Assembly (NCBI GenBank): GCA_964506075.1
Contig: CAZDKO010000005.1
Coordinates: forward strand, 1-62,527
Direction of reading: 5' to 3'
Length of the DNA stretch: 62,527 nucleotides
DNA from: an uncultured bacterium
GTDB lineage: Bacteria > CAZDME01 > JAYEMH01
Position numbers and translations under genes: made by a program. This document shows positions 73-59,748 of the stretch, piece by piece; position 1 is the first letter of the stretch; every line of letters starts with the position of its first letter. Below the pieces are notes generated by a model. That model was not told where the DNA came from and did not search any database. It saw only the letters and a list, made by a program, of their open reading frames with translations.

Positions 73-3000
73 TTAACTTTTTAATCTCATATATATCTGT
101 TCATTATGCATCAGATTATCACACATTTTCAGACAGCCGATTTCAGAAAAATATAAATCGGTCTTGAGTAAATATTTAGCCCTGGCCCGGAATTCGTTAT
201 ATGGCGGGCTCATCCATATATCTTTAAAAGTCTGTTCATTTATATTCCCCATTATTTTTTTAACGGCCCGGCAGCAGGGGGCTATAGCCCCGTCAGCTAA
301 AACCCGGGTAAAAATCCAGCCGGCATAACAGGGTATCTGATTTACCCTTTGCCGGTCATAGTTTCCCGTTAGTCCGCTTTTCTCTTTTAAACGGGCAATA
401 AAACCGTCAAAATAATCCAATTCTATTTTTTTATCTTGAGCCAGCTCATGGTGCCTGTTTCTGATTATCCGGGTCATCTTTAAAACTTCCCCGGTCTCTT
501 TCTCATTTAAAATTAAAGCGTCTGTCGCTCCATCAATCGTATCTATCAGCGTAAAATATACTGCGTCTACCTGCATATCCAGGGCAAATCTGAACATTTC
601 TTCGACTTCCTTATAATTTAAATTACAAATGACGTTACATAAGGTGACAAAAGGCTTAGATTTTTTCCGGCTGGTAAGATACCTTAAATTTTTGTTTATC
701 CTTTCAAACATATCTTCTTGAGAATTAGGATGGGTTTTTTTATACGTTTCCTCGCTGGCGGCCCAGAGACTCACGGCTAATTCATCTACCTCTAAATCTA
801 TAAGCTTTCTTATTTTATCTTCGTCGACTAAAGAAAAATTGGTGGTTAAGCAGCATTTCAGTCCTTTAGCTTTTGTATATTCTATCAGGTCCATAAGGTT
901 AGGATGCATAAACGGCTCTCCGCCGCCGGTAAAACGAATTATTTTTGTTCCCAAATCAGAGAGTTCGTCAATAAGACGTCGGGCCGTTAAGAAATCTATC
1001 TCTTTTTTAAGCCACTGGCCGTTGGAGTTGTTTTTCAATAAAGGTGAATAAAGCCAGCAGCCGATACATTTTTCGTTACAGCGATTAGTTATATCAATAA
1101 CAACCTGCTCCGGGCCGCTAAAAGCCGTCCGCCCGTTAATGATGCCTTCTAATATTTTATCCTTACTAACGTTTTCACCTGGTTTAACAAAATTCAGTCT
1201 GGGTTTTTTTCTAATTCTGGCCAGCAAACGCAATAGACCCCGCTCTAAAGGGGTTAGAGACATTATCCGGTTATGTAAATAGATATTGCGGCCGATATCA
1301 TCACAGCTTTTATAACAACCGGCTTCTTTTATTTCCGGGTCATTCCCGATTAAATAAAAAAAGGGGTCATTTTTTTCATAGACCAGCGTTTTCCGGCGAA
1401 AATATTGCTGTTTTTCCCCGTTCCAGATTTGACTGAAACTATTATGATAAAGATTACCGACCGGAATCCGGTGGGCTTTAAGACAGGAATTAACGTTGCC
1501 ATCAGGCATAATCCGGCTGAAACACCAGCCGATATAACAGGGCATTTTATCAATTATATTACGGTCATAAGTGGCTTTAGATAAATCATTGGACGAACAG
1601 ATACGGCGTAAAAACGAATCAAACCTGAACAGCAAAACCTCATCCAGACAACCCCGCTTGTCTAAATTATCATTAAGACTTTTAGCCTTATCCTGCAATA
1701 TTTTTATCTGTTGGGGATTTAAAAGTAATTTATCTGTCTTACCCGGAACCGTATCAATTAAAGCAAATTCGACTGATTCAGAACCGGTCTCTCTGGCAAA
1801 ATCAACTATTTCTTCAAGCTCGTGATAATTAAGATTAAAAATAACATTGTACAGTTTTATGTAAGGTGTTCGTCTTTTCGCACTGTTAAGCAAAGTAAGA
1901 TTTGCCTTAATCTGGTTAAAAGTCTCTTCACTTTTATTGGGATGGGTAGCTGCGTAAGTCTGGGGGGTACCGGCCCAGGTGCTCACGGTTAAATGGTCCA
2001 GCCCTATCTCTATTATTTTTTCTATTTTCTCTTTATCCAATAAAGTGAAATTAGTGTTAACGTAACAGGTGAAATTCTTTTTCTTGGCATAAACTAAAAT
2101 ATCCATAATTTCCGGATGCATAAACGGTTCTCCCCCTCCGGAAAAATATATTTCTTTAGTTCCCATCGGTGATAATTCATCAAGTAATTCTTTCAATAAA
2201 CTGAACGGCAAAAATTGTTTCTTTACCCGGGGAGGGATAGCTTTTTCTTCCAGGAGAGGCGAATTACACCAGCAACCGATACAATTGTTATTACAATCAT
2301 TGGTCAAATCAATCTGAACGTGAAGCGGCCCTTTAAAGGCATATTGACCGTTAAAAACCCCGAGAATATCAAGATAATTTTGGACCAATCTTCCGGAACC
2401 GATGTGGTTTATAAGCTTTACGCTTGAATCTATGAAACCGATAGTTTTGAATTTATCTCTTAACTGCTTGAAACTGGAAGGCTGTCTATAAATGTTTTCA
2501 GATAAATCTCTGTTACCTTTAAGTAAACCGCTATGTCCTTCCGGAACAAAAGCGAAACTATGGATGTGCGGTACATAACCTTTCGTATGAATTTTAAAGG
2601 TGTGTTCACCTTCACTGATATCCAATGAGGTTTCTTTAAACCAGCGTAAATTTTTACTCATCCACCCCGAAGTTACATCTTTTAATGCTTTTTCCTTGAT
2701 CACCTTTCCGTCAAAATAAAACCTGACCGGTCGAATTTCATCCGTAGCGTAATACGACCAGAATTCATATTTGCCCGGGCTTCTAAAATTCACTTTGTAT
2801 TCGGCGAAACCAAATTTTTCCCCTCCGTCTATCACTATACCTTCTCCGAATTTATGGTCTTTTAAATTGAGGTTGCCTGACTGGAAATTAGCGGCGGGAA
2901 TAATAATTTCCCCTTTTGTTTTCGGAGAATCTTCCACCAGATTTTCCTTAATCTGTAAATTCATACCGACATTATCACAGGATTTATAACAGTTGATACT

Positions 3001-4341
3001 TCTAAAATAAGAATCACTCTTGGGAAAATTTTTAGCTTTATGTCTGAAATTCCGGTACGGTTCAGAATTCCATATTTCCAAAAATCTATTTTCGTAAATA
3101 TTACCTAATTTTTTAGTCACGGCTTTACAGCACGGGATAACCTCTCCGGTAGAAAGAATCCTGGAATAAATCCACCCGACATAACAGGGAAGATTATCAA
3201 TAACTTCTTTTTCATAAATCTGTTCATATATATTCGCCGAGTTTAACCGGCGAAGAAAAGAACCAAAACCAAGCGTGGTTAAAAAATTATAGGTAATTTT
3301 ATTATCTTTATCTACAAAGCAGGATTCCTGAAACGCCGGACAATTCCGGCAACTTTCCTCCGGGAAATTGAAGGTCACCTTATTATCAATCTCATTAATA
3401 AAAGGATTGGTCTTGGTTGGTAAAGTGGCGGTGCCATTTGAACAGACTAATGAATGTAAGGCTTCTTCGCCTATTCCTTCGGTATACTGTATCCATTCTT
3501 TAAGGATAACGCCCGGCTGAACCTTTATAAAACGCCCGGCAAATTCTTTCAATTCCTTATCCCGCTGGGCCATAAACCCTTTTAATCCCAATTCCCTGAA
3601 ATATAGATCCTTTCGTCCCTTTAAATCTTTGAACTGTTTTTTAATCTCTTTTATCTGATGGGGAGACAAAGCCAGAAATGACGTTTCTCCTTCAATGATA
3701 TCCATTATTTGAAATTCAACAAACTCCACCTGTGTTTCCAGAGCAAAATCAATCATTTCCGAAATTTCTTCATAATTCAAATTACAGATTACGTTATAGA
3801 TTTTTATATGAGGGAGGTATTGACATTTTCTGTTTTTTAATTCGGAAATTGCCTTAAGACTGTTTTTTATCCTGTAGAAATCCTCTTTTTGCCGGCTGGG
3901 GTGTGTTTTTACGTAGGTTTCCGGTGTAGCCGCCCAGATACTGGCCGTAATCATATCCACGCCTAAATCTATCATTCTTTCGGATTTTTGTTCATCAAGC
4001 AGGGTACAGTTGGTAATGACGTTTAATTTGAACCCATTCTCTTTAATCAGGGTTATGACTTCTAAAATATGAGGATGTAAAAACGGCTCACCGGCTCCGG
4101 AAATAAAAATTTCTTTTGTCCCCAGTTTCTTTAAATCTTCAATTAATGTTTTGACCTTTTCATAGGGTAAACTGGAATCTTTATCTGCCGGACGATTTTT
4201 TACAAAGGGAGAGTGCACCCAGCAGCCGATACAATCGTTATTGCATTTACCGGTAAGGTCAATTTGAACAATACCCGGTCCGATAAAAGCCTGCCGGCCG
4301 TCTTTTATTCCTTTTATAACTAATTGATTAATCGTCTCCAT
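73..4341 (-). CDS. Triple radical SAM/twitch polyprotein (1422 aa) with an internal CBM6/35-like beta-sandwich
   Basis: Three CxxxCxxC motifs (KCNNDCIGC at 4222-4245, DCNNNCIGC at 2272-2295, RCNEKCIGC at 1057-1080). Each is followed by GxGEPF and a PCYxGW...C...C-x3-CD auxiliary-cluster tail. A ~125-aa aromatic-rich beta domain lies at ~2540-2910. Confidence 0.9.
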   Translation of the reverse strand: METINQLVIKGIKDGRQAFIGPGIVQIDLTGKCNNDCIGCWVHSPFVKNRPADKDSSLPYEKVKTLIEDLKKLGTKEIFISGAGEPFLHPHILEVITLIKENGFKLNVITNCTLLDEQKSERMIDLGVDMITASIWAATPETYVKTHPSRQKEDFYRIKNSLKAISELKNRKCQYLPHIKIYNVICNLNYEEISEMIDFALETQVEFVEFQIMDIIEGETSFLALSPHQIKEIKKQFKDLKGRKDLYFRELGLKGFMAQRDKELKEFAGRFIKVQPGVILKEWIQYTEGIGEEALHSLVCSNGTATLPTKTNPFINEIDNKVTFNFPEESCRNCPAFQESCFVDKDNKITYNFLTTLGFGSFLRRLNSANIYEQIYEKEVIDNLPCYVGWIYSRILSTGEVIPCCKAVTKKLGNIYENRFLEIWNSEPYRNFRHKAKNFPKSDSYFRSINCYKSCDNVGMNLQIKENLVEDSPKTKGEIIIPAANFQSGNLNLKDHKFGEGIVIDGGEKFGFAEYKVNFRSPGKYEFWSYYATDEIRPVRFYFDGKVIKEKALKDVTSGWMSKNLRWFKETSLDISEGEHTFKIHTKGYVPHIHSFAFVPEGHSGLLKGNRDLSENIYRQPSSFKQLRDKFKTIGFIDSSVKLINHIGSGRLVQNYLDILGVFNGQYAFKGPLHVQIDLTNDCNNNCIGCWCNSPLLEEKAIPPRVKKQFLPFSLLKELLDELSPMGTKEIYFSGGGEPFMHPEIMDILVYAKKKNFTCYVNTNFTLLDKEKIEKIIEIGLDHLTVSTWAGTPQTYAATHPNKSEETFNQIKANLTLLNSAKRRTPYIKLYNVIFNLNYHELEEIVDFARETGSESVEFALIDTVPGKTDKLLLNPQQIKILQDKAKSLNDNLDKRGCLDEVLLFRFDSFLRRICSSNDLSKATYDRNIIDKMPCYIGWCFSRIMPDGNVNSCLKAHRIPVGNLYHNSFSQIWNGEKQQYFRRKTLVYEKNDPFFYLIGNDPEIKEAGCYKSCDDIGRNIYLHNRIMSLTPLERGLLRLLARIRKKPRLNFVKPGENVSKDKILEGIINGRTAFSGPEQVVIDITNRCNEKCIGCWLYSPLLKNNSNGQWLKKEIDFLTARRLIDELSDLGTKIIRFTGGGEPFMHPNLMDLIEYTKAKGLKCCLTTNFSLVDEDKIRKLIDLEVDELAVSLWAASEETYKKTHPNSQEDMFERINKNLRYLTSRKKSKPFVTLCNVICNLNYKEVEEMFRFALDMQVDAVYFTLIDTIDGATDALILNEKETGEVLKMTRIIRNRHHELAQDKKIELDYFDGFIARLKEKSGLTGNYDRQRVNQIPCYAGWIFTRVLADGAIAPCCRAVKKIMGNINEQTFKDIWMSPPYNEFRARAKYLLKTDLYFSEIGCLKMCDNLMHNEQIYMRLKS

Positions 4342-6760
4342 TGGCGTATCGTTTTCTTTTTATCCAGATAAATCCTAAATAATCCAGGGTTTTTAAAACT
4401 GCTGAACGGAATCCGTGTCCTTTCAAATATTTTCTAAATCTTTCCAGATCCCCTCTAAGCCCTCTTTTCTTTCTAATATGCTCTCCCCATAGACGATAAG
4501 CAGACCTTTTCGCTCTCTCTAAATCTTGAGCCGTAAGATTATCGGGCTTAAAAACACAGTGATAATGCCCGTCATACTGGGAATAATCTTTAACTAAAAT
4601 TCGTCCCTGCTTATCCAGCTCCTCAAAAAGTTTTGTTCCCGGGAAAGGAGTAAGGATGGAAAACTGGACCGAATTAGGCTCTAAACCTATAGCGTAATCA
4701 ATAGTCCGGCGAATGCTTTCTTTGGTTTCCCCGGCTATTCCAAAAGTAAAAGTTAGGTGAGTTTTTATACCTAATTCTTTGGTCTTCTTTATCATTTTAT
4801 CCGTTTTCTGAAAATCCATATTTTTATGGCAGTTATTCAGCAACTCATTGGATATTGATTCTACCCCGTATTTAACCGCCCATAACCCCGCAGATTTCAT
4901 TTTTTTAAGTATTTCTTCATCCATTAGATCGGGTCTGGCCATTATTGCCCAGGGGGTATCCTGCAATTTTTTCTCCTTTACCAGCTGGCAAAACCGGAGC
5001 ATCCTTTCTTTCCCGACGTTAAACGTATCGTCGTCAAAATAAACGGATTTAAAGTTTCTCTCTTTAATTAAATATTCCATTTCCTCCACCACGTCTGTAA
5101 CCGAACGCGTCCGGTAATGACTCCCTTGATACATCACCTGAGGCCAGAGACAGAAATTACAGCCAAAAGGACAACCACGGGAAGCCAGCATCTGCACGGA
5201 AGGTAAAGGAATGTTACCGGGAAGATCCCAGTATTTGTTCATCGGCAGTTGTTTCCGGTCGGGCCAGGGAAGAAGGTTTATATCCGATAAAGCTCTTTTG
5301 GGGTTCTTAAATATTTTTCCGCCTTGGCGATATATTAACCCTTTCACCTTGGCTAAATCCTTTCCTGATTTAAGATGTTGTATTAATTCCAATAAAGTGA
5401 ATTCGTATTCGCCATAAAGAACAAAATCTACAAATAAATTTTTCTTCAAGAAATTTTCCGTATAAATTTCTGAATTAGGCCCGCAAAGAATTATACTGAT
5501 TCCCGCTTTGTGTATTCTTTCAAGCATCCGCAAATCATCGTAAAATGATGGAACCGAAGTTTCTGTTACCAGATAATCAAACGTCATATTCAATATCTTT
5601 TCCATAAGAACATCTTCAGGCATTTCTTCAGCTATGGCATCAATTATCGTCACCTCAATATTATGTTTCTGCAGTAAAGAGGCGGCATAGGCAAGAAAGA
5701 AAGGGAAAGGTAAATAGTCGCCTTCACTTTTATCTTTAATGTGCGGCCAGCGGGAACCAGCCCGTACCCCCCATTGACCATTCCTCTGCCAGGGGAGATT
5801 AACCAATAATAAACTTATTTTCTTACGTGCGGATTTTTTTCTACCCTTAACAATCTCTCCCTTCATGATAGAGCGTAATAGATTCTGTCTTAAAAATTCT
5901 ATCTTTTCATCCAGAGAATAATTATCCTCAAATAAATTTATTTTTGCTGAGAAAAAATCATATTTACCCGCGGTATAATCTTTTCCTTTTCCAGGATGAT
6001 TTCCACCGCCATTTTTTCTAAAGCCGATGAGATGGGCGTTAATTTCCAGGGGGGCATTTTGAATCACCGGGTAAACATCTTTTGATTTATTCGGTGACAG
6101 CTCTAAAGTAAAAGACGGCAGAGACACCGCTTCTTTCGGAAATCTTACTCCGACCAGGCAACTTGGCGTTTCATCCAGAGGGACGTTATACCAGACGGGC
6201 GTTAAACGAGGAAAATCCGCTTGTTTGTAATTATTTATCCAGCTTTTATAGTTGGGGGAGAGAAGACAAACCATACACATCTCGTCAATATAGATGTCAT
6301 CCTGAACGAACATCTCTATCTGCCAGCTGATTTCCTGAGACTTTTCTATCTTTAAATGCCAGACCTGGGTGATGGGTAAATCCTCAAATTTAACCTCTAA
6401 CTTAAAACAATCTACGCCTTTTTCTAAAACCTTCCACCTGGCTTTGGAAGAATCGGTCCAGAATCCCAAGCTATTTATCCCTGCATTTAAACCCACCCCC
6501 TGCGTCACTTCAGCTTCGTCCAGATAAACATTTAAACCGTATCCGGAACAGACAATTTTAATTTTCCCCTTACTAATCACACCGTCTGGAATTTGAACTA
6601 TCTCTTTAATGTTTTTTCCCTGTCCGGCTCTAATTCCTATTTTTTGTAACGTTTTTTTAACCTTAAAGATTAAATATTTCAGTCCTCTGAAGAAAGCATA
6701 AAGGATTCCCCCGCTCCTTAAATGTTCCTTCAATTTATAATAATTAGATTTTAAAGCCAC
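4328..6760 (-). CDS. B12-binding radical SAM protein (810 aa) with an N-terminal ~220-aa beta-rich domain
   Basis: GTG start. Contains LLVNLPW...RAGSRWP...PFFLAYAA (cobalamin-binding-domain-like), GEYE, SRGCPFGCNFC, YFDDDTF, GVES and TPFPGT. The N-terminal domain aligns with the Wzt tail repeats and with the N-terminus of 27341..29596. Confidence 0.88.
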   Translation of the reverse strand: MALKSNYYKLKEHLRSGGILYAFFRGLKYLIFKVKKTLQKIGIRAGQGKNIKEIVQIPDGVISKGKIKIVCSGYGLNVYLDEAEVTQGVGLNAGINSLGFWTDSSKARWKVLEKGVDCFKLEVKFEDLPITQVWHLKIEKSQEISWQIEMFVQDDIYIDEMCMVCLLSPNYKSWINNYKQADFPRLTPVWYNVPLDETPSCLVGVRFPKEAVSLPSFTLELSPNKSKDVYPVIQNAPLEINAHLIGFRKNGGGNHPGKGKDYTAGKYDFFSAKINLFEDNYSLDEKIEFLRQNLLRSIMKGEIVKGRKKSARKKISLLLVNLPWQRNGQWGVRAGSRWPHIKDKSEGDYLPFPFFLAYAASLLQKHNIEVTIIDAIAEEMPEDVLMEKILNMTFDYLVTETSVPSFYDDLRMLERIHKAGISIILCGPNSEIYTENFLKKNLFVDFVLYGEYEFTLLELIQHLKSGKDLAKVKGLIYRQGGKIFKNPKRALSDINLLPWPDRKQLPMNKYWDLPGNIPLPSVQMLASRGCPFGCNFCLWPQVMYQGSHYRTRSVTDVVEEMEYLIKERNFKSVYFDDDTFNVGKERMLRFCQLVKEKKLQDTPWAIMARPDLMDEEILKKMKSAGLWAVKYGVESISNELLNNCHKNMDFQKTDKMIKKTKELGIKTHLTFTFGIAGETKESIRRTIDYAIGLEPNSVQFSILTPFPGTKLFEELDKQGRILVKDYSQYDGHYHCVFKPDNLTAQDLERAKRSAYRLWGEHIRKKRGLRGDLERFRKYLKGHGFRSAVLKTLDYLGFIWIKRKRYANGDD

Positions 6761-6800: not shown

Positions 6801-8588
6801 TTAGCTGCCTGCCAGATCATTTCCATTTATTATTTTCATCAAATAGATAAACACTTCTTCCTGAAGCTGATTCTCATAAAGGTTTTGAAATTTAATCTTC
6901 AAACTTGCATCTTTTCCCTGAGGAAACAAATAAGCTTCGGGATTTTCTATTTTCTCGCTGGTAATCAGAATCATAAAATCAGATTCGGATAACGTCGCAT
7001 AATAAGTATCCGAAAGATTCCAGAACCTTCTGGTCTGGGAGTCCCCCTTCAAAGAAATTTTAATTAAATGTTCCATTTTAACGGTTTTATCAGTAACCCA
7101 AAAAGCCTGGAATCTGGCTGAATCTTTATCTAAAAAGGCAATGCTAACCATATCTTCTCCCGGGATATAGCTATTGTTAATTTTCTCCGCAATTTGCTCC
7201 GCTATTTCTACCCGTTTTGAAGGTATTGGTTGATGAGAAATTATCCCTCCGGAATGCAATTTCTCAAGGAAATGTTTCTTGCCCGGCGCGGAGAAATACG
7301 AATAATAAATTACCGTTAAGATTCCCAGAATAAAGACAATAATTTTTGTAAAGTCTTTTTTTCTGGAATCAGCGCCGACAAAAAATCCGGAACATAAAGA
7401 TAATACCGGAAGAAGGGGAATGATGAATTTACCCCATTTAATATGGTAAAGGGTTAACAATATATAACCGCCAACTCCCCATACAGCCATAAAGGGTTTT
7501 ATCCCGGTATTTATCAGCCTGCTTTTCTTAAACAAAGAAACGCAAGAAACAACGGCTAACAGGAAAAATAAAGGAGAGGTGAAATAGATAATTTCAAAAA
7601 AATAAAACATAAAAGTTTTAACGTTAAACCCGACGTTGGTAGTCTGGGTACACGGGCAGAAAGAATCCTGTTTGGCCATAAGGAAAGATTCAATGACAGC
7701 GTTATCAGCACTGCCGATAAAGTCGGTGGATTGAAGCGTTAATTTCTGCCAGGCCTCATTGAAACTCTCCGTAAGACTGGTAAAAACCCTAAGATATTCA
7801 CCGCTACAATAGAAATGGAAAAACAGGAAAAATAAAAGAAGGAAAGAACCGGTTTCGAATAAACCGGTCAATTTTTTCCCGTTTTTACGAAAGGTCAGGA
7901 TACTAAAAAAATGAAATAAAATCAGCGGAATAAAGAAGACGAGGAAAAGTCCTCCTGATAAAGTTCCTAAAACACCGATAATCAGTAAGCCCGGAATCCT
8001 TATAGACTGCCTGAGTGTCTTCCAGCGGATAAAAATAATTACGGAAAGCACTATAAATAAAGTAATTATTAATTCTGAATTAATCATTCTGGAAATACCG
8101 CATACGCCCGGATAAAAAGAAAATATAACGGCGGACCAGGCCCCGGCTGAACGGTGGAAAACAATTTTACCTAAACAGTATATCGCTAAAAGAACCAATA
8201 CCCATTGACTGAACATTATCATATTAACCCAGAATAACTTCTGGGTAGTTTGCAGGTTTGCCGCCAGTGGAAAAGCGATAAAAAAAGTAGAGAGATTAAA
8301 ATTAACGGGCTTAAAAACGTAATCAGAATGGGCTAAAGTAAAGATCTCAAAGGTTTTAAAAATCTTTCTGGCCGGTGAATAATCGCCGTTTCGCAATACA
8401 CTAACATATTCCAAAGCCCTTTCTTCCAGCCAGACGGAATGAGCCCCTTCACTTACCAGACCGCTTTTCTGCCACCAGACTATGTTATTAAAAAGATGAA
8501 AGAGTATAATAATGGCCAAAAGGCCCCGGCTATCAAAGAATTGGTTTATTAAACGGTAATTCTTTTTTTCTTTCAAAATTTGCCTCAC
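6801..8588 (-). CDS. Polytopic membrane glycosyltransferase-like protein (GT-C/ArnT-PMT-like), paralogue of 25546..27327
   Basis: Multiple hydrophobic segments; IYCLGK...AGAWSAVIFSFYPG pattern typical of GT39/83-like proteins; FIIPLLPVL; soluble C-terminal tail. Confidence 0.7.
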   Translation of the reverse strand: MRQILKEKKNYRLINQFFDSRGLLAIIILFHLFNNIVWWQKSGLVSEGAHSVWLEERALEYVSVLRNGDYSPARKIFKTFEIFTLAHSDYVFKPVNFNLSTFFIAFPLAANLQTTQKLFWVNMIMFSQWVLVLLAIYCLGKIVFHRSAGAWSAVIFSFYPGVCGISRMINSELIITLFIVLSVIIFIRWKTLRQSIRIPGLLIIGVLGTLSGGLFLVFFIPLILFHFFSILTFRKNGKKLTGLFETGSFLLLFFLFFHFYCSGEYLRVFTSLTESFNEAWQKLTLQSTDFIGSADNAVIESFLMAKQDSFCPCTQTTNVGFNVKTFMFYFFEIIYFTSPLFFLLAVVSCVSLFKKSRLINTGIKPFMAVWGVGGYILLTLYHIKWGKFIIPLLPVLSLCSGFFVGADSRKKDFTKIIVFILGILTVIYYSYFSAPGKKHFLEKLHSGGIISHQPIPSKRVEIAEQIAEKINNSYIPGEDMVSIAFLDKDSARFQAFWVTDKTVKMEHLIKISLKGDSQTRRFWNLSDTYYATLSESDFMILITSEKIENPEAYLFPQGKDASLKIKFQNLYENQLQEEVFIYLMKIINGNDLAGS

Positions 8589-8600
8589 AGGGTCTACTAA

Positions 8601-9599
8601 TTAGTTTATTACCGGCTTGTTTTTTTCAAAAAAACAATTAATCATTTGTTTGCAATTCTTCCGGCAGGTTTTTATCTCATTCCTTACTTCCTCGGCCTTC
8701 TTCCCAAACCATATTTTATTTATATCTCCTTCTCTAATGTTACCGATGGGGTCCATTTCAAAGCAAAGATATATCCAGCCGTAGGAATCCACCGCAAAAG
8801 AATTATAGCCTAAATCACAACTATTTTTTAAAAACCGGTCAGGAAAAGAAAAATATGATTTAAAAATTTCAAATTGTCCGAACGGATTATCAATTTTATA
8901 CCCGTTTTTTTTCAATCTGGCCAAATCATCAATAACGGCCATGACTTGCTCAGGATTTCCGGGCCAGAGAAAGTTGAACTCGTCTTTTTTATACCAATTT
9001 TCATCCGGCGGACTAAAGAATGGCTGCATAAGCGCCTGGAAGTAAATTGAATGAATCCTCTTACGGCTATCAACCCATTTAACCAGGTCAACAAGGTCAT
9101 TTAAGTTTAAAGCCGATATGGTGGTGACGATGTGAATCCGGGGTAATTCGGAAGAAAGCTCGGTAAAATAATCAATAGCCTTTATTACTTTTTCATAGAC
9201 CCCTTCCACCCCTCTTAAATAATCATGGGTCTTTGAATTTAAACTATCCAGGGATAAAACTAAATTCTGAAGACCTGAGGTTACAAGTTCTCTCGCTTTT
9301 TCCCGGTTGATTAAAAATCCGCTCGTTGTCATCACCGGGAGAAAATTGTTTTCGGCCGTTACCCGGATAAGGTCTGTAATTCCTTTTTTCATCATCGGCT
9401 CTCCTCCAACCAAGAGAACTTCAGATTTTTCTCTGGCAAAATTCTTTAAAGAGTTAATAAAATCCATCCATCCCCGAGCCGGGATAGTGTCGGGGTCGTC
9501 ATTACACTTCCACATATGACACATTTTACATTTAAGCAGGCAATTTCTTAAGATTACTAAATGGCATTGAGACGGATATTTTTCTATTAGATTATCCAT
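8601..9599 (-). CDS. Radical SAM/twitch protein, array family member
   Basis: CLLKCKMCHMW, GGEP, SLDSL..HD.LRG, WY...LWP motif, and C-terminal C-x17-C...CRKNCKQMINC. Confidence 0.9.
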   Translation of the reverse strand: MDNLIEKYPSQCHLVILRNCLLKCKMCHMWKCNDDPDTIPARGWMDFINSLKNFAREKSEVLLVGGEPMMKKGITDLIRVTAENNFLPVMTTSGFLINREKARELVTSGLQNLVLSLDSLNSKTHDYLRGVEGVYEKVIKAIDYFTELSSELPRIHIVTTISALNLNDLVDLVKWVDSRKRIHSIYFQALMQPFFSPPDENWYKKDEFNFLWPGNPEQVMAVIDDLARLKKNGYKIDNPFGQFEIFKSYFSFPDRFLKNSCDLGYNSFAVDSYGWIYLCFEMDPIGNIREGDINKIWFGKKAEEVRNEIKTCRKNCKQMINCFFEKNKPVIN

Positions 9600-9643
9600 T
9601 ATTTCTTTTATTCAGGCGGACGTTTGTTCCCGAAAGTTTTAGA

Positions 9644-10693
9644 TTAGTTCATGATAAAAGGATAACTTTCCTCAAAAAAACAGTTAATCAGAAAATGACA
9701 ATTTTCTTTACAGCCCCTGATATTTTCCCGGATGGCACCGGCTTTCTCCGAAAGCCATAGAGTTCGGATGTCATCTTTTTGCTCTTTGATATTTCCCAGA
9801 CTTTTCCAGTTGTAACATAAAAAAATATCACCGACCGAACTGATGTGAATAGCCTGTTCAAGATTACAAGGGCCGCTTTTTACAAAACGGTCAGGAGCGC
9901 TTAAATATCTTTCAAAGGCCTCTAATTGAATGGGCTGATTCCCCACTAACTTTTGTTCAATCTGACTGTGCTTGATGATTTCATCAATAACGCTAACGGC
10001 TTTTTTCGTATCCTGCGGCCAGTATTGACTGAATTCTTTGGAGTTATACCAATGCTTATTTAATTCATCTTTACCGCAATAAGTATTATTCGGTTGCATC
10101 GGCACCTGAAAATTAATGGAACGGACCCGGGGGGAAATATTTTCTACCCATTCAAGCAGCTCAATGACTCCATCCAGGTTATCCTCCATAATTATGGTGG
10201 CAATGCCGATATGAAGACCGGGGTAATATTCGGCCAGATTATCTATCGCCTCCATTACCTTTTTATGGGCCCCTCTGACCCCGCGCCACCGGTCATGAAT
10301 CTCTTCATCCAGGCTGTCTAAAGAAAGAATGAGACTGAAAAGCCCTGAACGGGCTATTTCCTGAGCCGTTTTTTTATCGATTAAATAGCCGTTACTGGCG
10401 ACGGTTACTTTAAAACCGATATCAGCGCAATATCTGACAAAATCCCAGAGCCAATTCATAAGCAGAGGCTCGCCCCCGCCTATGTAAATCTCAAAATTTT
10501 CATCGACTAAATCCCTGATCTGAGAAGCGGCCCTCTTCCATTCTTCAAGCGTGGGTTTCGGTTTCCCGGAGGTGTGCTTGTCTTTCTTCCATTTGTCACA
10601 CATTTTGCAGCGTAAAATACAATCGTCTATTATCCCGAAACTGCAAAATTTTGGTTTAAGCGTCTGCCCTTTATCTGTTCCCTCTATTTTCAC
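9644..10693 (-). CDS. Radical SAM/twitch protein, array family member; close paralogue of 24459..25526
   Basis: CILRCKMCDKW, GGGEP and CKENCHFLINC. Confidence 0.9.
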   Translation of the reverse strand: MKIEGTDKGQTLKPKFCSFGIIDDCILRCKMCDKWKKDKHTSGKPKPTLEEWKRAASQIRDLVDENFEIYIGGGEPLLMNWLWDFVRYCADIGFKVTVASNGYLIDKKTAQEIARSGLFSLILSLDSLDEEIHDRWRGVRGAHKKVMEAIDNLAEYYPGLHIGIATIIMEDNLDGVIELLEWVENISPRVRSINFQVPMQPNNTYCGKDELNKHWYNSKEFSQYWPQDTKKAVSVIDEIIKHSQIEQKLVGNQPIQLEAFERYLSAPDRFVKSGPCNLEQAIHISSVGDIFLCYNWKSLGNIKEQKDDIRTLWLSEKAGAIRENIRGCKENCHFLINCFFEESYPFIMN

Positions 10694-11685
10694 TGATATT
10701 CTTCCTCATAAACACAATTAATTAAAAGCTCACAATTTTTCTTGCAATTATGCATTTTTTCTCTGACTGAATCGGCCCTGGCCGAATTCCATATTTCAGA
10801 AAAATTTTGATTCTTTATATTCGCTAAAGGCTCGTGTTTAAAACAAAGATATATTTGCCCTTTAACATCCAGAAAAATTGAAGAGTAACCTAAATTACAT
10901 TCTGTTTTTTTTATAAAATTCAAAGGGGTTTCAAAATAACTTTCAAAAACTTCCAGCTGGGAAGAAGAATTTATTATTTTATAGCCTTTCCTTTTTAAAG
11001 CCGCTATCTCTTTTAATACGCTTTTAAGCTGCGATATATCTTTAGGCCAGAGATAAGAAAAAGGGCTGTTTTTATACCAGAACTCGTCTGCCGGCGATTC
11101 ATAAGGCCGCATCAGGGCCAGAAGATTAATACCGTTAATTTTCTCATGATTGTTTACCCAATCTATCAAAGGGAAAAGACCATCCAAAGTCTGCTCTGAA
11201 ATAATAGCGTTGATACCTAAATAAACATCCGGATAAATTTTATTCAGAATCTCAATAGCCCTCATCACCCTGCTCCAGCTTCCAGTAACACCCCTTAAGA
11301 AATCATGCGTTTTCTCATCCAGACTATCCAGAGACAGGAAGATACTATTCAGACCGCTATCGTTCATTTGCCGAGACATATTTTCATCTAATAAATACGC
11401 ATTGGTATTTATTAAAGAAGAAAAACCGCAATGGCGAATAAATTTTACTATATCCAGGAAATCGCTTCTTAAAAGAGGTTCTCCGCCAATTAAATTAAAT
11501 AAAACCGGCTTATCACAGAAATCCTTCAACTGTAATATAAAATTTTTAATGGTGGCAGTGTCCATCGTTTCTTTAAAACGGCTTTGTGTTTCCCACATTC
11601 TGCACATTTTACATTTAAACGTACATTGCTGGGTAACGGTTAAAACACAAAAATTCGGTTTTTTAGATTGTCTTTCTATAATCAT
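10690..11685 (-). CDS. Radical SAM/twitch protein, array family member
   Basis: CTFKCKMCRMW, GGEP and CKKNCELLINC; ATGA-type overlaps with both neighbours. Confidence 0.9.
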   Translation of the reverse strand: MIIERQSKKPNFCVLTVTQQCTFKCKMCRMWETQSRFKETMDTATIKNFILQLKDFCDKPVLFNLIGGEPLLRSDFLDIVKFIRHCGFSSLINTNAYLLDENMSRQMNDSGLNSIFLSLDSLDEKTHDFLRGVTGSWSRVMRAIEILNKIYPDVYLGINAIISEQTLDGLFPLIDWVNNHEKINGINLLALMRPYESPADEFWYKNSPFSYLWPKDISQLKSVLKEIAALKRKGYKIINSSSQLEVFESYFETPLNFIKKTECNLGYSSIFLDVKGQIYLCFKHEPLANIKNQNFSEIWNSARADSVREKMHNCKKNCELLINCVYEEEYQ

Positions 11686-13247
11686 TTTATTTTTCCCGCT
11701 TGGAAAGCATCCTCTCCAAGAAATTTATATAAATTAATTTCTTTTAAATCCTGTATCATGGTCAACAAATTCTGATGATTATCGCAGTGGGTGCAATGTT
11801 CGTCATAAAGTTTCATCCCGTTTAAAAACTCAACGTCTTTATAATTTGACATAAATTTAGCTTCATATCGTCTTTGCCTGTAATAATCAGACTGCCAGAT
11901 TTCTTTAAATCGCTTTTCATCTAAATAACCTACCGTCCTGAGGTGGCAGCACATACTTATATCGCCTACCGCCGGAATTAAACAGAAACACCATCCAATA
12001 TGACAGCCTTCTTTTAAGAAAACGTCTTTAGACCACGAACCGGTGTCATTATCATAATTAGAAAGCTGGAATTTTATGTTGTCCACAAATTCTATCCCGG
12101 CTTTTTTAAAAATACCGGCTATAACCGGGAGGTCTCTCTGGATACTGGCAATTTGTTCATCGTTTAATTTTAAATGTCGGTTGTTTTTATCAAGCCTTAT
12201 AAGATAAAACCGGGCTGAATCTGTACCTATATAGACATCTAATTCGGCCATTTTTATAAGTTCGTCATAATTTAATTTGTGAATGACATGGGTCATCGTT
12301 AATATCGGCTGTCTCTTCGCTTTTTCCCTCTTTATGTCCATTAATCTTTTCATATTTTCAACGATAACGTTAAACCATTCCCCCTTCTTGGAATTCGGGC
12401 AGACTTCTTCATAAGTTTTTTCACTTCCGGCCGGTAAGGAACAATATATCTGACTGATGCCTAAGCCTATGACCTCCCGGGCAATTTTTTCATCAAGGAA
12501 ACATCCGTTGGTAAAAAAAAGAGATTTCATTTTTTTCTTTCTTACGTATCTTATCATCTCTAAAAAGTCAGGATGTAACAGGGGTTCTCCGTCTCCCTGA
12601 AGAATAATATCTTCGGCTTTAAGCTCGGCCGCATCATCCATAATTTCTTTAAATTTATCCAGCGTAATCTTTCTATCCAGGAATCCCGGGGCATGGTTAA
12701 TAACCGGATTATGAACAAAACAATGGACACAACCCACGTTGCATCGATGATAAGGGTCAAGCACGATTGTCTGGGGCCCGATAAAAGCCTCTTCACAAAC
12801 AACCCCTAATAACCGGGCAATTCGTTTTTCTTTGTGCGGATAATGGTAGGCCCGGTTACCGGCAATTTCCAGAATAAACCTTAAATCATCATCAATCAAT
12901 TTTAATTCCATATTTCCCAGACGGTTGCATAACCTCCTTAATTTTTCAATATACGTAAAGAAGTTACTGACAATATCACGCACCGGAAAAGCCTTAAATT
13001 CGTTATTTAATATCATTCTCTCTTCATCGCTGAGTTTCTTTTTTAAGAGAGCGGTAGCGAATTCAACGATTTTATTGAGTCTGAAAAAATTATATCTGGA
13101 AATACCGATAACCACTTTAACCCCTTTATTTTTAACCTGCGCTTCAATCAAGGTTATGGTATTACGGAAATCAGCTTGACTGGCAATACGATTATGTAAC
13201 TGGGCATAATCGCCGCATAATAAAATTTTTGAATCTAATCTACGCAT
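11682..13247 (-). CDS. Radical SAM/twitch protein with a ~150-aa N-terminal extension
   Basis: GPQTIVLD..HRCNVGCVHC, GDGEP, CHIGW...MCC...CTHCDN; same subfamily as the triple-rSAM domains. Confidence 0.85.
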   Translation of the reverse strand: MRRLDSKILLCGDYAQLHNRIASQADFRNTITLIEAQVKNKGVKVVIGISRYNFFRLNKIVEFATALLKKKLSDEERMILNNEFKAFPVRDIVSNFFTYIEKLRRLCNRLGNMELKLIDDDLRFILEIAGNRAYHYPHKEKRIARLLGVVCEEAFIGPQTIVLDPYHRCNVGCVHCFVHNPVINHAPGFLDRKITLDKFKEIMDDAAELKAEDIILQGDGEPLLHPDFLEMIRYVRKKKMKSLFFTNGCFLDEKIAREVIGLGISQIYCSLPAGSEKTYEEVCPNSKKGEWFNVIVENMKRLMDIKREKAKRQPILTMTHVIHKLNYDELIKMAELDVYIGTDSARFYLIRLDKNNRHLKLNDEQIASIQRDLPVIAGIFKKAGIEFVDNIKFQLSNYDNDTGSWSKDVFLKEGCHIGWCFCLIPAVGDISMCCHLRTVGYLDEKRFKEIWQSDYYRQRRYEAKFMSNYKDVEFLNGMKLYDEHCTHCDNHQNLLTMIQDLKEINLYKFLGEDAFQAGKIK

Positions 13248-13297
13248 TTTATAAAAAACCCTCTCTTTTTTTTATTTTATCTCAGTTTATCTGGCCG

Positions 13298-14323
13298 TCA
13301 CTGGCCATCTTCAAAATAACAGTTAACCAAGGGTCCGCAATATTTCTGACAGGACTCCATTTTCCTTCTTATCTCATTGGCTTCCCGGGAATACCAGAGG
13401 TCTCTCAGATTAACACCTTCTGCCCTGAGGTTACCCACCCTTCCGTAGATATGGCAAAGGTTAATATCGCCTAAAGGGCTGACGCTAAAAATATGTTTCC
13501 CTTTACGACATTTTACTTTTCGGTTAAATCCCTGAGGGTCCTGGAAATATAATTTAAAAGCTTCCAGTTGCCCAAGGGGGTTGGCAATTTTAAAACCCCT
13601 TTTTTTCAGCTCAATTAATCCGTCTATAACCGCATTCACTTCTTCGGTATTATCGGGCCAGAGACCCTTGAACTCATCCCGGAGATACCACTTGTTATCC
13701 GTAAACCAGCCATCGTCAGAACTGGAAAAATTAGGTTGAACGATAGCTTGAAAATACATATTTCCTATCCGGCGGTCACGCTCTCCCCACTCAGCCAATT
13801 CGATTATTTCGGCTAAATTATGTTTCATAATAATCGTCTGGAGACTTAAGCTGAAACCATCCACTCTAAATTTATCCAGGTAATCAATGGCTCTGAAGAC
13901 CTTTTTATACACACCCTCCACTCCTCTTATATAATCGTGAGTCTTCTCATCTAAACTATCCAGAGAAATACCCAGGCAATTCAAGCCCGAACCGGCTATT
14001 TCTCTGGCCAGGGTTTCATCTATTAAATAAGCGTTTGAAACCATTATGACCTTAAACCCCTGTCGGGCGGTAAACCGGATCAGGTCTAAAACCCCTTCTT
14101 TTAATAACGGCTCCCCGCCGGTAATATTTATCTCTATTTGCGTCCCCAGTTGTTCACGAAGGCGAACGATAAAATTTTTCCATTCATCAATGCTGAGTTC
14201 ATCGGGCGTACCTTTACATTTCCAATTCCCGCACATTTTACAGCGTAACATGCATTTTTCTAAAACCTCCAGGACACAAACCTGAGGATTTAAGAGGTCC
14301 TTGTTTTCCGATTTTCCTTTCAT
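13298..14323 (-). CDS. Radical SAM/twitch protein, array family member
   Basis: CMLRCKMCGNW, GGEP and CQKYCGPLVNC. Start moved to the ATG at 14323 (MKGKSEN), which has a GGAG RBS and follows the upstream stop at 14326. Confidence 0.9.
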   Translation of the reverse strand: MKGKSENKDLLNPQVCVLEVLEKCMLRCKMCGNWKCKGTPDELSIDEWKNFIVRLREQLGTQIEINITGGEPLLKEGVLDLIRFTARQGFKVIMVSNAYLIDETLAREIAGSGLNCLGISLDSLDEKTHDYIRGVEGVYKKVFRAIDYLDKFRVDGFSLSLQTIIMKHNLAEIIELAEWGERDRRIGNMYFQAIVQPNFSSSDDGWFTDNKWYLRDEFKGLWPDNTEEVNAVIDGLIELKKRGFKIANPLGQLEAFKLYFQDPQGFNRKVKCRKGKHIFSVSPLGDINLCHIYGRVGNLRAEGVNLRDLWYSREANEIRRKMESCQKYCGPLVNCYFEDGQ

Positions 14324-14325
14324 AC

Positions 14326-15297: not shown

Positions 15298-15312
15298 CGG
15301 CTTTATCCCTTT

Positions 15313-17447: not shown

Positions 17448-17462
17448 TCTCCGTAATAATAA

Positions 17463-18500: not shown

Positions 18501-18513
18501 ATCGTAAGGCGAT

Positions 18514-19548: not shown

Positions 19549-19569
19549 TTTTACTCCAAGCATTATTCG

Positions 19570-21255: not shown

Positions 21256-21283
21256 CGTGCTTTAAGAATAATCGATTATTTTA

Positions 21284-22318: not shown

Positions 22319-22375
22319 TATCCAAATCCTCCGATTAAGATTATGTTTCCTTTATTTTCAGGGAAAATAAAAATT

Positions 22376-23380: not shown

Positions 23381-23389
23381 ATTTTAAAA

Positions 23390-24436: not shown

Positions 24437-24458
24437 CTTTACACCTTTAAGTTTTCAT

Positions 24459-25526: not shown

Positions 25527-25545
25527 AAATAACCTCATCCTTAAT

Positions 25546-36635: not shown

Positions 36636-36640
36636 TTTTT

Positions 36641-37642: not shown

Positions 37643-37668
37643 GGTTATTGTGAGTGCCTGACGGCCGG

Positions 37669-46105: not shown

Positions 46106-46231
46106 ATGCTTATCAGTGGCTGGATTTTTCTGATTGCTTCCTGGGGGGTCATTCTGTCTTTGATTATTTTTTGTTTCTGGAAAACCTTTACCCTCAATCT
46201 TCGCGAGGAAAAGCGAACTAAACCTCAATGA
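46106..46231 (+). CDS. 41-aa single-TM protein, probable small partner of the NSS transporter (MetS-like); not in the ORF track
   Basis: The ATG directly follows the transporter TAA, with GGAG upstream. Sequence MLISGWIFLIASWGVILSLIIFCFWKTFTLNLREEKRTKPQ. Its TGA overlaps the next ATG (ATGA). Confidence 0.65.
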   Translation: MLISGWIFLIASWGVILSLIIFCFWKTFTLNLREEKRTKPQ

Positions 46232-53018: not shown

Positions 53019-53021
53019 CTA

Positions 53022-54356: not shown

Positions 54357-54363
54357 CCTGTTT

Positions 54364-57823: not shown

Positions 57824-57827
57824 TGAT

Positions 57828-58247: not shown

Positions 58248-58273
58248 AAAGCAGTATTCCTCTTCTGTTTAAA

Positions 58274-59709: not shown

Positions 59710-59748
59710 GTGTTTTTAACCTGAAAAATAATCCTGCCCGGACTGGCT

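What the first reader, a model, noticed from the sequence alone, without database searches (positions are those of the whole stretch)
5920..6575. The same unknown domain is fused to two rSAM enzymes and to the exporter
Seen: the N-terminal domain of the B12-rSAM (~5920-6575) and that of the 751-aa rSAM (~28785-29420) align with each other (E.T.G.GLN..IN..G.W.DSSK..WK.LE...PITQ.WHLKI...EI.W.IEM...YKSWIN...P.IQN.P.E.NA). They also align with the Wzt repeats, best with unit 6 (ELTTGLGIYTSIRSSGIWHDS...LPISQIWKVEV...YWKVEM...SPNYKKWI). That makes eight copies in one operon. Inference: the domain either recognises a common glycan or cap, targeting the enzymes to the exported substrate, or self-associates to tether enzymes on Wzt. 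This is the strongest internal evidence that the rSAM array and the exporter are one system.
Basis: partly seen in the sequence, partly recalled or inferred. Interest (0 to 1): 0.85.

Follow-up and report, generated by a model that had tools for sequence, protein, structure and literature searches.

The report
Shared sugar-binding-like domain links exporter and enzymes
A previously uncatalogued ~220-residue beta-sandwich domain occurs six times in the tail of a polysaccharide-export ATPase and once at the front of two radical-SAM enzymes in the same operon, and this pairing is conserved across the phylum Omnitrophota, so exporter and enzymes very probably work on one lipid-linked glycan.

Summary
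Eight copies of one ~220-aa domain ("D") lie in one minus-strand operon. Six follow the ABC domain of a 1663-aa Wzt. One follows a basic amphipathic leader in the 810-aa B12-rSAM, and one in the 751-aa rSAM/SPASM enzyme.

Homology is beyond doubt. A profile-profile comparison built only from non-window sequences gives E 8.6e-46.

D matches no Pfam, NCBIfam or PDB sequence. A confident AlphaFold model (pLDDT 90) has the galactose-mutarotase-like beta-supersandwich fold found in many carbohydrate-active enzymes.

An exhaustive search of 1.84 billion proteins finds only 628 cluster representatives. Every one of the best 150 that could be classified is one of four kinds:
- a Wzt tail with 2-7 assigned copies (up to 9 matched stretches);
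- an rSAM fusion;
- a leader+D stand-alone protein;
- a GT-C glycosyltransferase tail.

Every hit that carries an organism name is from Omnitrophota.

In 21 of 22 assessable genomes the enzyme-type D gene directly follows a D-tailed wzt. Two proteins fuse Wzt, D repeats and an rSAM/SPASM enzyme in one chain.

Each position in the array is an old paralogue type of its own. The "one system" inference is supported.

Glycan binding is the most likely function but rests on fold and context only. It is a new variant of the Wzt substrate-recognition tail.

The parts
5897..6592 (-). D domain (enzyme type) of the 810-aa B12-binding radical-SAM protein, aa 57-288
   Evidence: HMM hit i-E 1.2e-75 with a profile that holds no window sequence. 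AlphaFold model pLDDT 90.1, all-beta. Foldseek places it with galactose-mutarotase-like supersandwich domains.
6626..6760 (-). Conserved basic amphipathic leader of the 810-aa protein (aa 1-45), followed by a flexible linker
   Evidence: Alignment A3 has invariant Y21 A22 G26 K28 Y29 F32. It is predicted as a helix at aa 7-41 at low confidence and does not pack on D. Maximum KD hydropathy is at most 1.2, muH is 0.47-0.63 and net charge is +7 to +12.
4328..5896 (-). Catalytic part of the 810-aa protein: B12-binding-like domain plus radical-SAM core (CPFGCNFC)
   Evidence: Pfam Radical_SAM E 1.3e-22; B12-binding E 0.0015, below cut-off. The best NCBIfam match is HpnJ, E 5.8e-73, below cut-off.
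28751..29437 (-). D domain (enzyme type) of the 751-aa rSAM/SPASM protein, aa 54-282
   Evidence: HMM i-E 9.1e-62 with the non-window profile. 41% identical to the D of the 810-aa protein.
29477..29596 (-). Leader of the 751-aa protein (aa 1-40); the gene start overlaps the end of wzt
   Evidence: Alignment A3. ORF coordinates show a 17-nt overlap with wzt.
27341..28750 (-). Linker plus radical-SAM/SPASM catalytic part of the 751-aa protein
   Evidence: Pfam Radical_SAM E 1.3e-17 and SPASM E 9.5e-12. 46% identical to module 2 of the 1422-aa protein.
33870..34571 (-). Wzt ABC nucleotide-binding domain (aa 1-234)
   Evidence: Pfam ABC_tran E 5.5e-22. The best NCBIfam matches are TagH and the galactan Wzt.
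33228..33869 (-). Wzt D unit 1 (aa 235-448), 'first' type
   Evidence: i-E 8e-18 with an HMM that excludes it. Closest to the first units of other genomes, 31-35%.
32502..33164 (-). Wzt D unit 2 (aa 470-690), 'middle' type
   Evidence: 39-44% identical to units 3 and 4, and 35-41% to the second-of-four units elsewhere.
31833..32495 (-). Wzt D unit 3 (aa 693-913), 'middle' type
31182..31829 (-). Wzt D unit 4 (aa 915-1130), 'middle' type
30945..31181 (-). Charged helical linker between units 4 and 5 (aa 1131-1209), with RRLEAERLEKQ x3
   Evidence: Translation. A 33-bp tandem repeat x2.9 lies at 30994-31090.
30246..30944 (-). Wzt D unit 5 (aa 1210-1442), 'penultimate' type
   Evidence: i-E 4e-23 with an HMM that excludes it. 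36-43% identical to penultimate units elsewhere.
29583..30239 (-). Wzt D unit 6 (aa 1445-1663), 'last' type; the best-conserved unit
   Evidence: 47-52% identical to the last units of other genomes. Shares the W-x-D-S motif with the enzyme type. The terminal D of GT-C tails is of this type.
34573..35349 (-). Wzm ABC-2 permease
   Evidence: Pfam ABC2_membrane E 2.9e-16.
35346..38799 (-). Upstream conserved genes: FAD amine-oxidase-fold protein (Glf/HemY-like), WecA-like polyprenyl-phosphate sugar-1-P transferase, GT4 glycosyltransferase
   Evidence: Pfam and NCBIfam. Same order in related loci.
73..4341 (-). 1422-aa protein with three rSAM/SPASM modules and a weak CBM6/35-like insert; conserved partner downstream of the D-B12-rSAM
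   Evidence: Pfam Radical_SAM x3 and SPASM x3. CBM_6 E 0.025. Fused or split equivalents sit in the same position in related loci.
6801..27327 (-). Window-specific expansion between the two D-carrying enzymes: 14 rSAM genes (mostly ~340-aa rSAM/SPASM), an aldo-keto-reductase/ferredoxin fusion, and two paralogous GT-C-like membrane proteins (6801-8588, 25546-27327)
   Evidence: Pfam. The membrane proteins are weakly homologous to the GT-C part of D-tailed PMT_2 proteins, E 1e-8 to 6e-13. Locus L034 has a similar array.

Best explanation
D is a non-catalytic ligand-recognition module of a phylum-specific glycan assembly line, most likely for the lipid-linked glycan or its modified end.

Proposed sequence of events:
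1. [quoted passage not shown]
2. The radical-SAM enzymes tailor it there. The two D-carrying enzymes are held at the membrane by their basic amphipathic leader and find the substrate through D.
3. The Wzm/Wzt exporter reads the finished glycan with its array of three to six differentiated D units. This is the role that the unrelated jelly-roll carbohydrate-binding domain plays in classical Wzt.
4. In relatives, GT-C glycosyltransferases carry D tails of the 'last-unit' type. They probably bind the same glycan after export.

Shown: homology of all copies, the fold, rarity, the range of architectures, synteny, fusions, and positional orthology.

Inferred: that the ligand is a carbohydrate, the membrane role of the leader, the order of events, and the periplasmic location of the GT-C tails.
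For: - All eight copies are homologous.
- The model is confident (pLDDT 90.1, pTM 0.89). Its best PDB neighbours are supersandwich domains of carbohydrate-active proteins: GH36 galactosaminidase at E 3e-7 and TM 0.65, GH94, GH129, OpgG, LacZ domain 5, heparinase III, GH38, hyaluronate lyase and YidC P1.
- The positions conserved across 125 units are T, G, Q, P and five aromatics (W53, W78, Y115, W118, F127). There is no conserved acid or His pair, which fits a binding module rather than an enzyme.
- D sits exactly where classical Wzt carries its cap-binding domain. No Wzt_C match is present (background from PMC9445017).
- The domain is confined to proteins that handle one pathway: Wzt tails, rSAM enzymes, leader+D proteins and GT-C tails. 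GT-C-D proteins also sit next to rSAM/SPASM arrays.
- The terminal D of GT-C tails is closest to the last Wzt unit, 31-42% identity.
- A D-tailed wzt lies directly upstream of the enzyme-type D gene in 21 of 22 assessable genomes.
- Wzt-D-rSAM single-chain fusions exist: P0012, and P0135 with three cluster members.
- The triple rSAM protein has a weak CBM6/35-like insert.
Against: - No ligand binding was tested, and no ligand is known for any member.
- The supersandwich fold also serves purely structural or protein-contact roles (YidC P1, PBCV-1 minor capsid proteins). Fold alone therefore does not prove sugar binding.
- TM-scores are moderate (0.5-0.65) and sequence identity to the PDB neighbours is 7-12%.
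- The periplasmic location of the GT-C tails rests on general knowledge of GT-C topology. My crude hydropathy count was not decisive.
- The strict positional orthology of the units would also fit a fixed protein scaffold.
- The leader has invariant residues. That suggests a specific partner rather than generic lipid binding.
Confidence: 0.55

Rival explanations
1. D is a protein-protein docking module. The enzyme-type D, possibly with its conserved leader, binds one of the differentiated D units of the Wzt tail. The tail would then be a scaffold that holds the rSAM enzymes at the exporter, and no glycan contact by D would be needed.
For: - Each Wzt position is an old, separately conserved type (within type 30-45% identity, between types 17-23%). 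This is what a scaffold with distinct docking sites would look like.
- The enzyme-type gene always follows wzt, and their reading frames overlap.
- Natural Wzt-D-rSAM fusions show that proximity is selected.
- The leader has invariant residues.
- The same fold makes protein contacts in YidC P1 and in virus capsids.
Against: - D tails on GT-C glycosyltransferases are expected to be on the other side of the membrane from Wzt, yet their terminal unit is of the Wzt-last type.
- No enzyme-type D is consistently closest to any one Wzt unit.
- Most rSAM enzymes of the operon carry no D at all.
- Not tested directly: no multimer modelling was available.
Confidence: 0.22
2. The D array is mainly a spacer or ruler. 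It is a rigid string of beta-sandwiches, plus a charged helix in this window, that sets a distance between membrane and enzymes or measures glycan length, as the coiled coil of WbdD does in E. coli O9a.
For: - Copy number in the Wzt tail varies from 2 assigned copies to 9 matched stretches.
- The middle unit was recently triplicated here, at 39-49% identity.
- A charged helical insert carries a 33-bp tandem repeat.
Against: - A spacer does not explain a single D at the N-terminus of enzymes, stand-alone leader+D proteins, or the strong conservation of the last unit (45% mean between genomes).
- A spacer need not keep surface aromatics conserved.
Confidence: 0.1
3. D is itself an enzyme, for instance an epimerase, a mutarotase-like activity or a glycan-cleaving activity. 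Some supersandwich proteins are catalytic (aldose 1-epimerase, OpgG/OpgD).
For: Structural neighbours include OpgG and domains that contribute to glycosidase active sites.
Against: - No acidic or histidine residue is conserved across the family. Only T, G, Q, P and aromatics are.
- Six divergent tandem copies on a transporter ATPase are not expected for a catalyst.
- There is no sequence match to any enzyme family.
Confidence: 0.05

Closest known systems
Wzt C-terminal carbohydrate-binding domain of O-antigen ABC exporters (E. coli O9a, Aquifex aeolicus; Pfam Wzt_C)
   Same: Both are appended directly after the Wzt nucleotide-binding domain, in an operon with Wzm and a polyprenyl-phosphate sugar transferase. 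The classical domain recognises the chemically modified end of the finished glycan before export (PMC9445017). D is proposed to do the equivalent job.
   Different: - There is no sequence relation: no Pfam Wzt_C hit and no PDB sequence hit at E up to 10.
- The fold class and size differ: a ~220-aa supersandwich against a ~150-aa jelly roll (the latter from my own knowledge). No Wzt chain is among the 50 best Foldseek matches.
- D occurs in 2 to 9 tandem, differentiated copies rather than as one domain.
- D is shared with the tailoring enzymes.
WbdD-type chain terminator encoded next to wzt in E. coli O8/O9a (from established knowledge)
   Same: An enzyme gene directly downstream of wzt acts on the glycan that Wzt then recognises. 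The D-B12-rSAM occupies this position in 21 of 22 genomes, and class B rSAM enzymes are typically methylases.
   Different: WbdD is a kinase/SAM-methyltransferase with a coiled-coil ruler and shares no domain with Wzt. Here the enzyme is a B12-type radical-SAM protein whose closest family, HpnJ, is matched below its cut-off. Capping activity is speculation.
Galactose-mutarotase-like beta-supersandwich domains of glycoside hydrolases, polysaccharide lyases, OpgG and YidC P1
   Same: The overall fold, by Foldseek (E 3e-7 to 1e-3, TM 0.5-0.65).
   Different: Sequence identity is 7-12%. D has no catalytic residues. It is used as a free-standing repeat on a transporter and on rSAM enzymes.
Carbohydrate-binding modules on the C-terminus of GT-C enzymes (EmbA/B/C, AftD of mycobacteria; from established knowledge)
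   Same: GT-C membrane glycosyltransferases with C-terminal glycan-binding beta-domains. The D-tailed PMT_2 proteins have the same layout.
   Different: The module family is different, and the GT-C proteins here sit in rSAM-rich loci.

Membership tests
Wzt/TagH-type polysaccharide ABC exporter ATPase | N-terminal ABC nucleotide-binding domain of the Wzt/TagH type | tested here: met
   Pfam ABC_tran E 5.5e-22. The best NCBIfam matches are TagH (E 1.8e-58) and the galactan Wzt (E 1.3e-46), all below equivalog cut-offs.
Wzt/TagH-type polysaccharide ABC exporter ATPase | Adjacent ABC-2 (Wzm) permease gene and glycan-initiation genes | tested here: met
   ABC2_membrane E 2.9e-16 directly upstream. 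A WecA-like Glycos_transf_4 and a GT4 enzyme lie further upstream.
Classical Wzt carbohydrate-binding domain (Pfam Wzt_C) | Sequence match to the Wzt_C family or to solved Wzt CBD structures | tested here: not met
   No Pfam hit on the whole protein or on single units at E up to 10. No PDB sequence hit at E up to 10.
Classical Wzt carbohydrate-binding domain (Pfam Wzt_C) | Binds the capped non-reducing end of the glycan | not testable with these tools
   This needs binding assays with the native glycan.
Galactose-mutarotase-like supersandwich fold | Fold similarity to solved members | tested here: met
   Foldseek gives 38 PDB matches at E<=1e-3. The best are GH36, GH94, GH129, OpgG, LacZ domain 5, PL and GH38 domains and YidC P1, with TM 0.5-0.65, on a model with pLDDT 90.
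Aldose 1-epimerase and other catalytic supersandwich enzymes | Conserved catalytic acid/base residues | tested here: not met
   No Asp, Glu or His is conserved at 80% or more across 125 units.
CAZy carbohydrate-binding modules | Membership of a described CBM sequence family | tested here: not met
   No Pfam CBM hit on any D unit at E up to 10.
Class B (cobalamin-dependent) radical-SAM enzymes (810-aa protein) | CxxxCxxC radical-SAM core preceded by a B12-binding domain | tested here: inconclusive
   Radical_SAM E 1.3e-22 and the motif CPFGCNFC are present. B12-binding scores only E 0.0015, 18.8 bits against a cut-off of 32.1. Full-length similarity to HpnJ, BchE and PhpK-type class B families is E 6e-73 to 9e-36, all below their cut-offs.
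HpnJ (hopanoid-associated B12 rSAM) | Score above the NCBIfam equivalog cut-off | tested here: not met
   246 bits against a cut-off of 578.
Radical-SAM/SPASM enzymes (751-aa protein) | Radical-SAM core plus C-terminal SPASM auxiliary-cluster domain | tested here: met
   Radical_SAM E 1.3e-17, SPASM E 9.5e-12, motif CNNNCIAC.

The most novel reading that the evidence does not exclude
Omnitrophota make a lipid-linked surface glycan that is heavily rewritten by radical chemistry (C-methylation, epimerisation, ring or cross-link chemistry). Up to 19 rSAM modules would do this before export. D would be the address label of that pathway: a new carbohydrate-recognition family whose differentiated units read successive features of the radical-modified glycan. 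It would couple tailoring enzymes, the exporter and the post-export GT-C enzymes into one physical assembly line.
Probability: 0.3. Interest if true: 0.85.

Novelty: new variant of a known kind. Interest (0 to 1): 0.68.

Why it matters
Substrate selection by ABC-type glycan exporters is understood from a single kind of carbohydrate-binding domain. This locus offers a second, unrelated solution, with several differentiated modules. It is also the first case I can find in which the recognition module of the exporter is shared with the enzymes that tailor the substrate.

It ties large arrays of radical-SAM enzymes of unknown function to a defined pathway and a defined cellular place: polyprenyl-linked glycan at the cytoplasmic face of the membrane, followed by Wzm/Wzt export. 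That makes their chemistry approachable.

It also gives a compact marker for a conserved cell-surface pathway in Omnitrophota, a phylum of very small and mostly uncultured bacteria. The marker is a D-tailed wzt followed by a leader-D-B12-rSAM gene.

Tried and rejected
- **The search for homologous proteins.** The 8-copy profile and a 40-sequence diverse profile both returned only the same three stand-alone leader+D proteins. The word prefilter seems to follow the first sequence, so the second search added nothing. The architecture census therefore rests on the best 150 of the 628 hits from the exhaustive search. The lower 478 hits were not seen.
It worked with the enzyme-type alignment only, so the 30 genome loci are biased towards loci that hold an enzyme-type D.
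- **Membrane topology of GT-C-D fusions.** My own hydropathy scan gave unstable helix counts. I rely on general GT-C knowledge instead and mark this as inferred.
- **A particular Wzt unit as the partner of the enzyme D.** I looked for one by identity within each genome and found no consistent one.
- **The leader as a transmembrane helix.** Rejected: hydropathy is too low and the segment is strongly amphipathic and basic.
- **Repeats as low-complexity or chance matches.** Rejected by E-values calculated for a database of 1.84e9 sequences.
- **Literature.** Searches for Wzt with radical SAM, and for Omnitrophota with radical SAM or LPS, found no description of this cluster or domain.
- **The 'Glf' label.** It is only weakly supported: UDP-galactopyranose mutase E 9e-13, with better matches to unnamed PRK07208 families. 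I call the protein Glf/HemY-like.
Full report
**Setting**

Bases 73-38799 of the window form one long minus-strand operon. In order of transcription it holds:
- a GT4 glycosyltransferase;
- a WecA-like polyprenyl-phosphate sugar-1-phosphate transferase;
- an FAD amine-oxidase-fold protein (Glf/HemY-like);
- the ABC-2 permease Wzm;
- a 1663-aa Wzt;
- a 751-aa rSAM/SPASM enzyme;
- a GT-C-like membrane protein;
- 14 rSAM genes, mostly ~340-aa rSAM/SPASM paralogues, together with an aldo-keto-reductase/ferredoxin fusion;
- a second GT-C-like membrane protein;
- an 810-aa B12-type rSAM enzyme;
- a 1422-aa protein with three rSAM/SPASM modules.

In all there are 17 rSAM genes and 19 rSAM modules.

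**The observation**

It is correct in every particular. The first ~290 residues of the 810-aa and 751-aa proteins are 39% identical. Both align with segments of the Wzt tail.

A profile made from six copies recovers the two copies that were left out, at i-E 8e-18 and 4e-23. It finds nothing else in the six-frame translation of the window.

The strictest test uses profiles built only from other genomes. The enzyme-type profile finds all six window Wzt units at i-E 1e-16 to 4e-38 for a database of 1.84e9 sequences. hhalign of the enzyme-type profile against the Wzt-unit profile gives E 8.6e-46 over 223 columns.

I refined the boundaries. D is aa 57-288 of the 810-aa protein and aa 54-282 of the 751-aa protein. 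The Wzt units are aa 235-448, 470-690, 693-913, 915-1130, 1210-1442 and 1445-1663. A charged helical linker (RRLEAERLEKQ x3) lies between units 4 and 5.

**What the domain is**

D matches nothing in three libraries:
- Pfam-A, even at E up to 10;
- NCBIfam;
- the sequences of solved structures, at E up to 10.

An AlphaFold model built on the 11-sequence alignment is confident (pLDDT 90.1, pTM 0.89) and all-beta. Its best PDB neighbours are beta-supersandwich domains. They come from GH36, GH94, GH129, GH38 and GH2 (LacZ domain 5) enzymes, heparinase III, hyaluronate lyase, OpgG and the YidC P1 domain, at E 3e-7 to 1e-3 and TM 0.5-0.65. That these all belong to the galactose-mutarotase-like fold is my own knowledge of those structures.

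The classical Wzt carbohydrate-binding domain is not among the 50 best matches.

Across 125 units from 30 genomes the positions kept at 88% or more are T, G, Q, P and five aromatics. No acid or histidine is conserved. This looks like a binding or structural module, not a catalyst.

**How common it is, and where**

An exhaustive HMMER search of 1.84 billion cluster representatives finds 628 proteins at E<=1e-3 and 292 at E<=1e-30. I classified the best 150, together with the three stand-alone proteins P0001-P0003 found earlier, using profiles taken from the window's own domains and Pfam:

| Class | Number |
|---|---|
| ABC domain followed by 2-7 D copies | about 80 |
| D fused to B12-rSAM or rSAM/SPASM enzymes, at either end | about 20 |
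| Stand-alone leader+D proteins of 270-300 aa | about 10 |
| PMT_2-type GT-C glycosyltransferases with 2-4 D copies at the C-terminus | 9 |
| D-only fragments | the remainder |

Two proteins are single chains of ABC domain, D repeats and an rSAM/SPASM enzyme. They are P0012 (GenBank RKY36779.1) and P0135, which has three members on separate contigs.

Every hit that carries an organism name is from Omnitrophota. The second refutation criterion, a promiscuous domain with no link to wzt loci, is therefore also not met. One reservation applies: the lower-scoring 478 hits were not inspected.

**Conserved gene order**

A scan of one genome per species returned 30 loci. All are Omnitrophota bins, some labelled Planctomycetia. 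My annotation of them shows this recurring order: GT4, WecA-like, Glf-like, Wzm, Wzt with D repeats, leader-D-B12-rSAM, three rSAM/SPASM modules (separate or fused), a second B12-type rSAM, GT4.

- In 21 of 22 loci where it can be judged, the gene directly upstream of the enzyme-type D is the D-tailed wzt. In the remaining locus one rSAM gene intervenes.
- Leader+D is fused to the B12-rSAM in 21 loci. In 4 loci it is a separate gene directly in front of it.

The window is an expanded form of this core. About 20 kb of extra rSAM genes and two GT-C-like genes lie between wzt and the D-B12-rSAM. The 751-aa enzyme looks like a chimera. Its leader+D resembles that of the B12-rSAM (39%). Its catalytic part resembles module 2 of the triple rSAM protein (46%). 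Locus L034 shows a similar expansion.

**The copies are not equivalent**

- Window unit 1 is closest to the first Wzt unit of other genomes (31-35%).
- Unit 5 is closest to the penultimate unit (36-43%).
- Unit 6 is closest to the last unit (47-52%).
- Units 2-4 are closest to a middle type. They are a recent local triplication, 39-49% identical to each other.
- The enzyme D is closest to other enzyme Ds (37-50%).

Between types, identity is only 16-26%. Over all loci, mean identity between genomes is 0.30-0.45 within a type and 0.17-0.23 between types. So there are at least five old paralogue types, each tied to a position.

The enzyme type and the last Wzt unit share a W-x-D-S motif. No Wzt unit is consistently the closest to the enzyme D. 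The terminal D of GT-C tails is of the last-unit type, at 31-42% identity.

**The leader**

Enzyme-type proteins start with a conserved segment, NYQKFKKHLKxGGLFYAxWRGIKYFVF, with six invariant residues. It is predicted as a long helix at low confidence, joined to D by a disordered linker.

It is too polar for a transmembrane helix. It is strongly amphipathic and carries a net charge of +7 to +12. I read it as an in-plane membrane anchor or a partner-docking helix. This is inference.

**Mechanism**

The best-supported reading is that D recognises the pathway's lipid-linked glycan. In classical systems the Wzt tail binds the chemically capped end of the finished glycan and so gates export (PMC9445017). 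Here the tail is replaced by an array of differentiated supersandwich modules.

The same module brings two rSAM enzymes to the substrate, and in relatives further rSAM enzymes and GT-C transferases. From general knowledge of GT-C enzymes, the C-terminal domains of GT-C proteins lie outside the cytoplasm. A last-unit-type D on both Wzt and GT-C therefore argues for a ligand that is present on both sides of the membrane, that is, the transported glycan.

The D-B12-rSAM gene sits where E. coli O8/O9a encodes the chain terminator WbdD (my knowledge). It may therefore install the feature that Wzt reads. That is speculation.

The main rival is docking of the enzymes onto a Wzt scaffold. It is not excluded and may hold as well. 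Positional orthology, the invariant leader residues and the natural fusions all fit it.

**Comparison and novelty**

The locus works like a Wzt with a substrate-recognition tail, but it fails the membership test for the classical Wzt_C domain. It has the galactose-mutarotase-like fold but belongs to no described sequence family.

I found no paper that describes the domain or the wzt-rSAM cluster. I rate it a new variant of a known kind. It is real, conserved and phylum-specific, and its function has not yet been tested.

Noticed in passing
window 30994-31090 (within wzt, aa ~1160-1192): A 33-bp tandem repeat of 2.9 copies at 92% match. It encodes RRLEAERLEKQ x3 inside an ~80-aa highly charged helical linker inserted between D units 4 and 5. 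It could be a length-variable spacer or a coiled coil.
   Followed up: partly
window ~2480-2930 (aa ~470-620 of the 1422-aa protein at 73-4341): A beta-rich insert lies between rSAM/SPASM modules 1 and 2. It gives weak, sub-threshold hits to CBM_6 (E 0.025) and CBM_35_2 (E 0.1). This may be a second kind of carbohydrate-binding module on an rSAM enzyme.
   Followed up: partly
window 27341-29596: The 751-aa enzyme looks like a chimera. Its leader+D is 39% identical to that of the B12-rSAM. Its rSAM/SPASM core is 46% identical to module 2 of the 1422-aa protein.
   Followed up: partly
window 6801-8588 and 25546-27327: Two paralogous ~595-aa polytopic membrane proteins have no Pfam or NCBIfam hit. 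They are weakly homologous (E 1e-8 to 6e-13) to the PMT_2/GT-C part of proteins that carry D tails in other genomes. They are probably divergent GT-C glycosyltransferases without a D tail.
   Followed up: partly
window 8601-25538: An array of 14 radical-SAM genes: twelve ~320-360-aa rSAM enzymes (SPASM detected in eleven of them), one 521-aa rSAM/SPASM and one 561-aa B12-type rSAM. It is interrupted by an aldo-keto-reductase fused to a 4Fe-4S dicluster domain (15313-16401), a possible dedicated reductase. A similar array occurs in locus L034.
   Followed up: partly
window 29580-29596 and 4328-4341: Reading frames overlap at wzt/751-aa rSAM (17 nt; 8 nt if the internal ATG is the start) and at 810-aa rSAM/1422-aa rSAM (14 nt). 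This suggests translational coupling.
   Followed up: no
L037 1-13321 (contig CAZDNS010000014.1): A relative's locus holds two PMT_2 GT-C proteins, one with two C-terminal D copies. They bracket a GT2 (possibly a polyprenyl-phosphate sugar synthase), an acetyltransferase-like gene and six rSAM genes.
   Followed up: partly
window 39028-39807 (+ strand): An inositol-monophosphatase-family gene borders the cluster here and also in the distant relative L001/L002. The chromosomal neighbourhood is therefore conserved, which speaks against a mobile island.
   Followed up: no
window 46228-48027 (+ strand): A separate PMT_2 GT-C glycosyltransferase with a C-terminal TPR array lies outside the operon.
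   Followed up: no
window ~51000-61700 (- strand): Genes for a membrane-bound, energy-converting [NiFe]-hydrogenase or Mrp-like complex: Complex1_49kDa/NiFeSe_Hases large subunit, two Proton_antipo_M subunits and a 4Fe-4S protein.
   Followed up: no
PDB 8h2i chains cG, cA, cs: Minor capsid proteins of the chlorovirus PBCV-1 are among the closest full-length structural neighbours of D (TM about 0.5-0.6 on both query and target). This is probably a shared supersandwich fold with no functional link.
   Followed up: no
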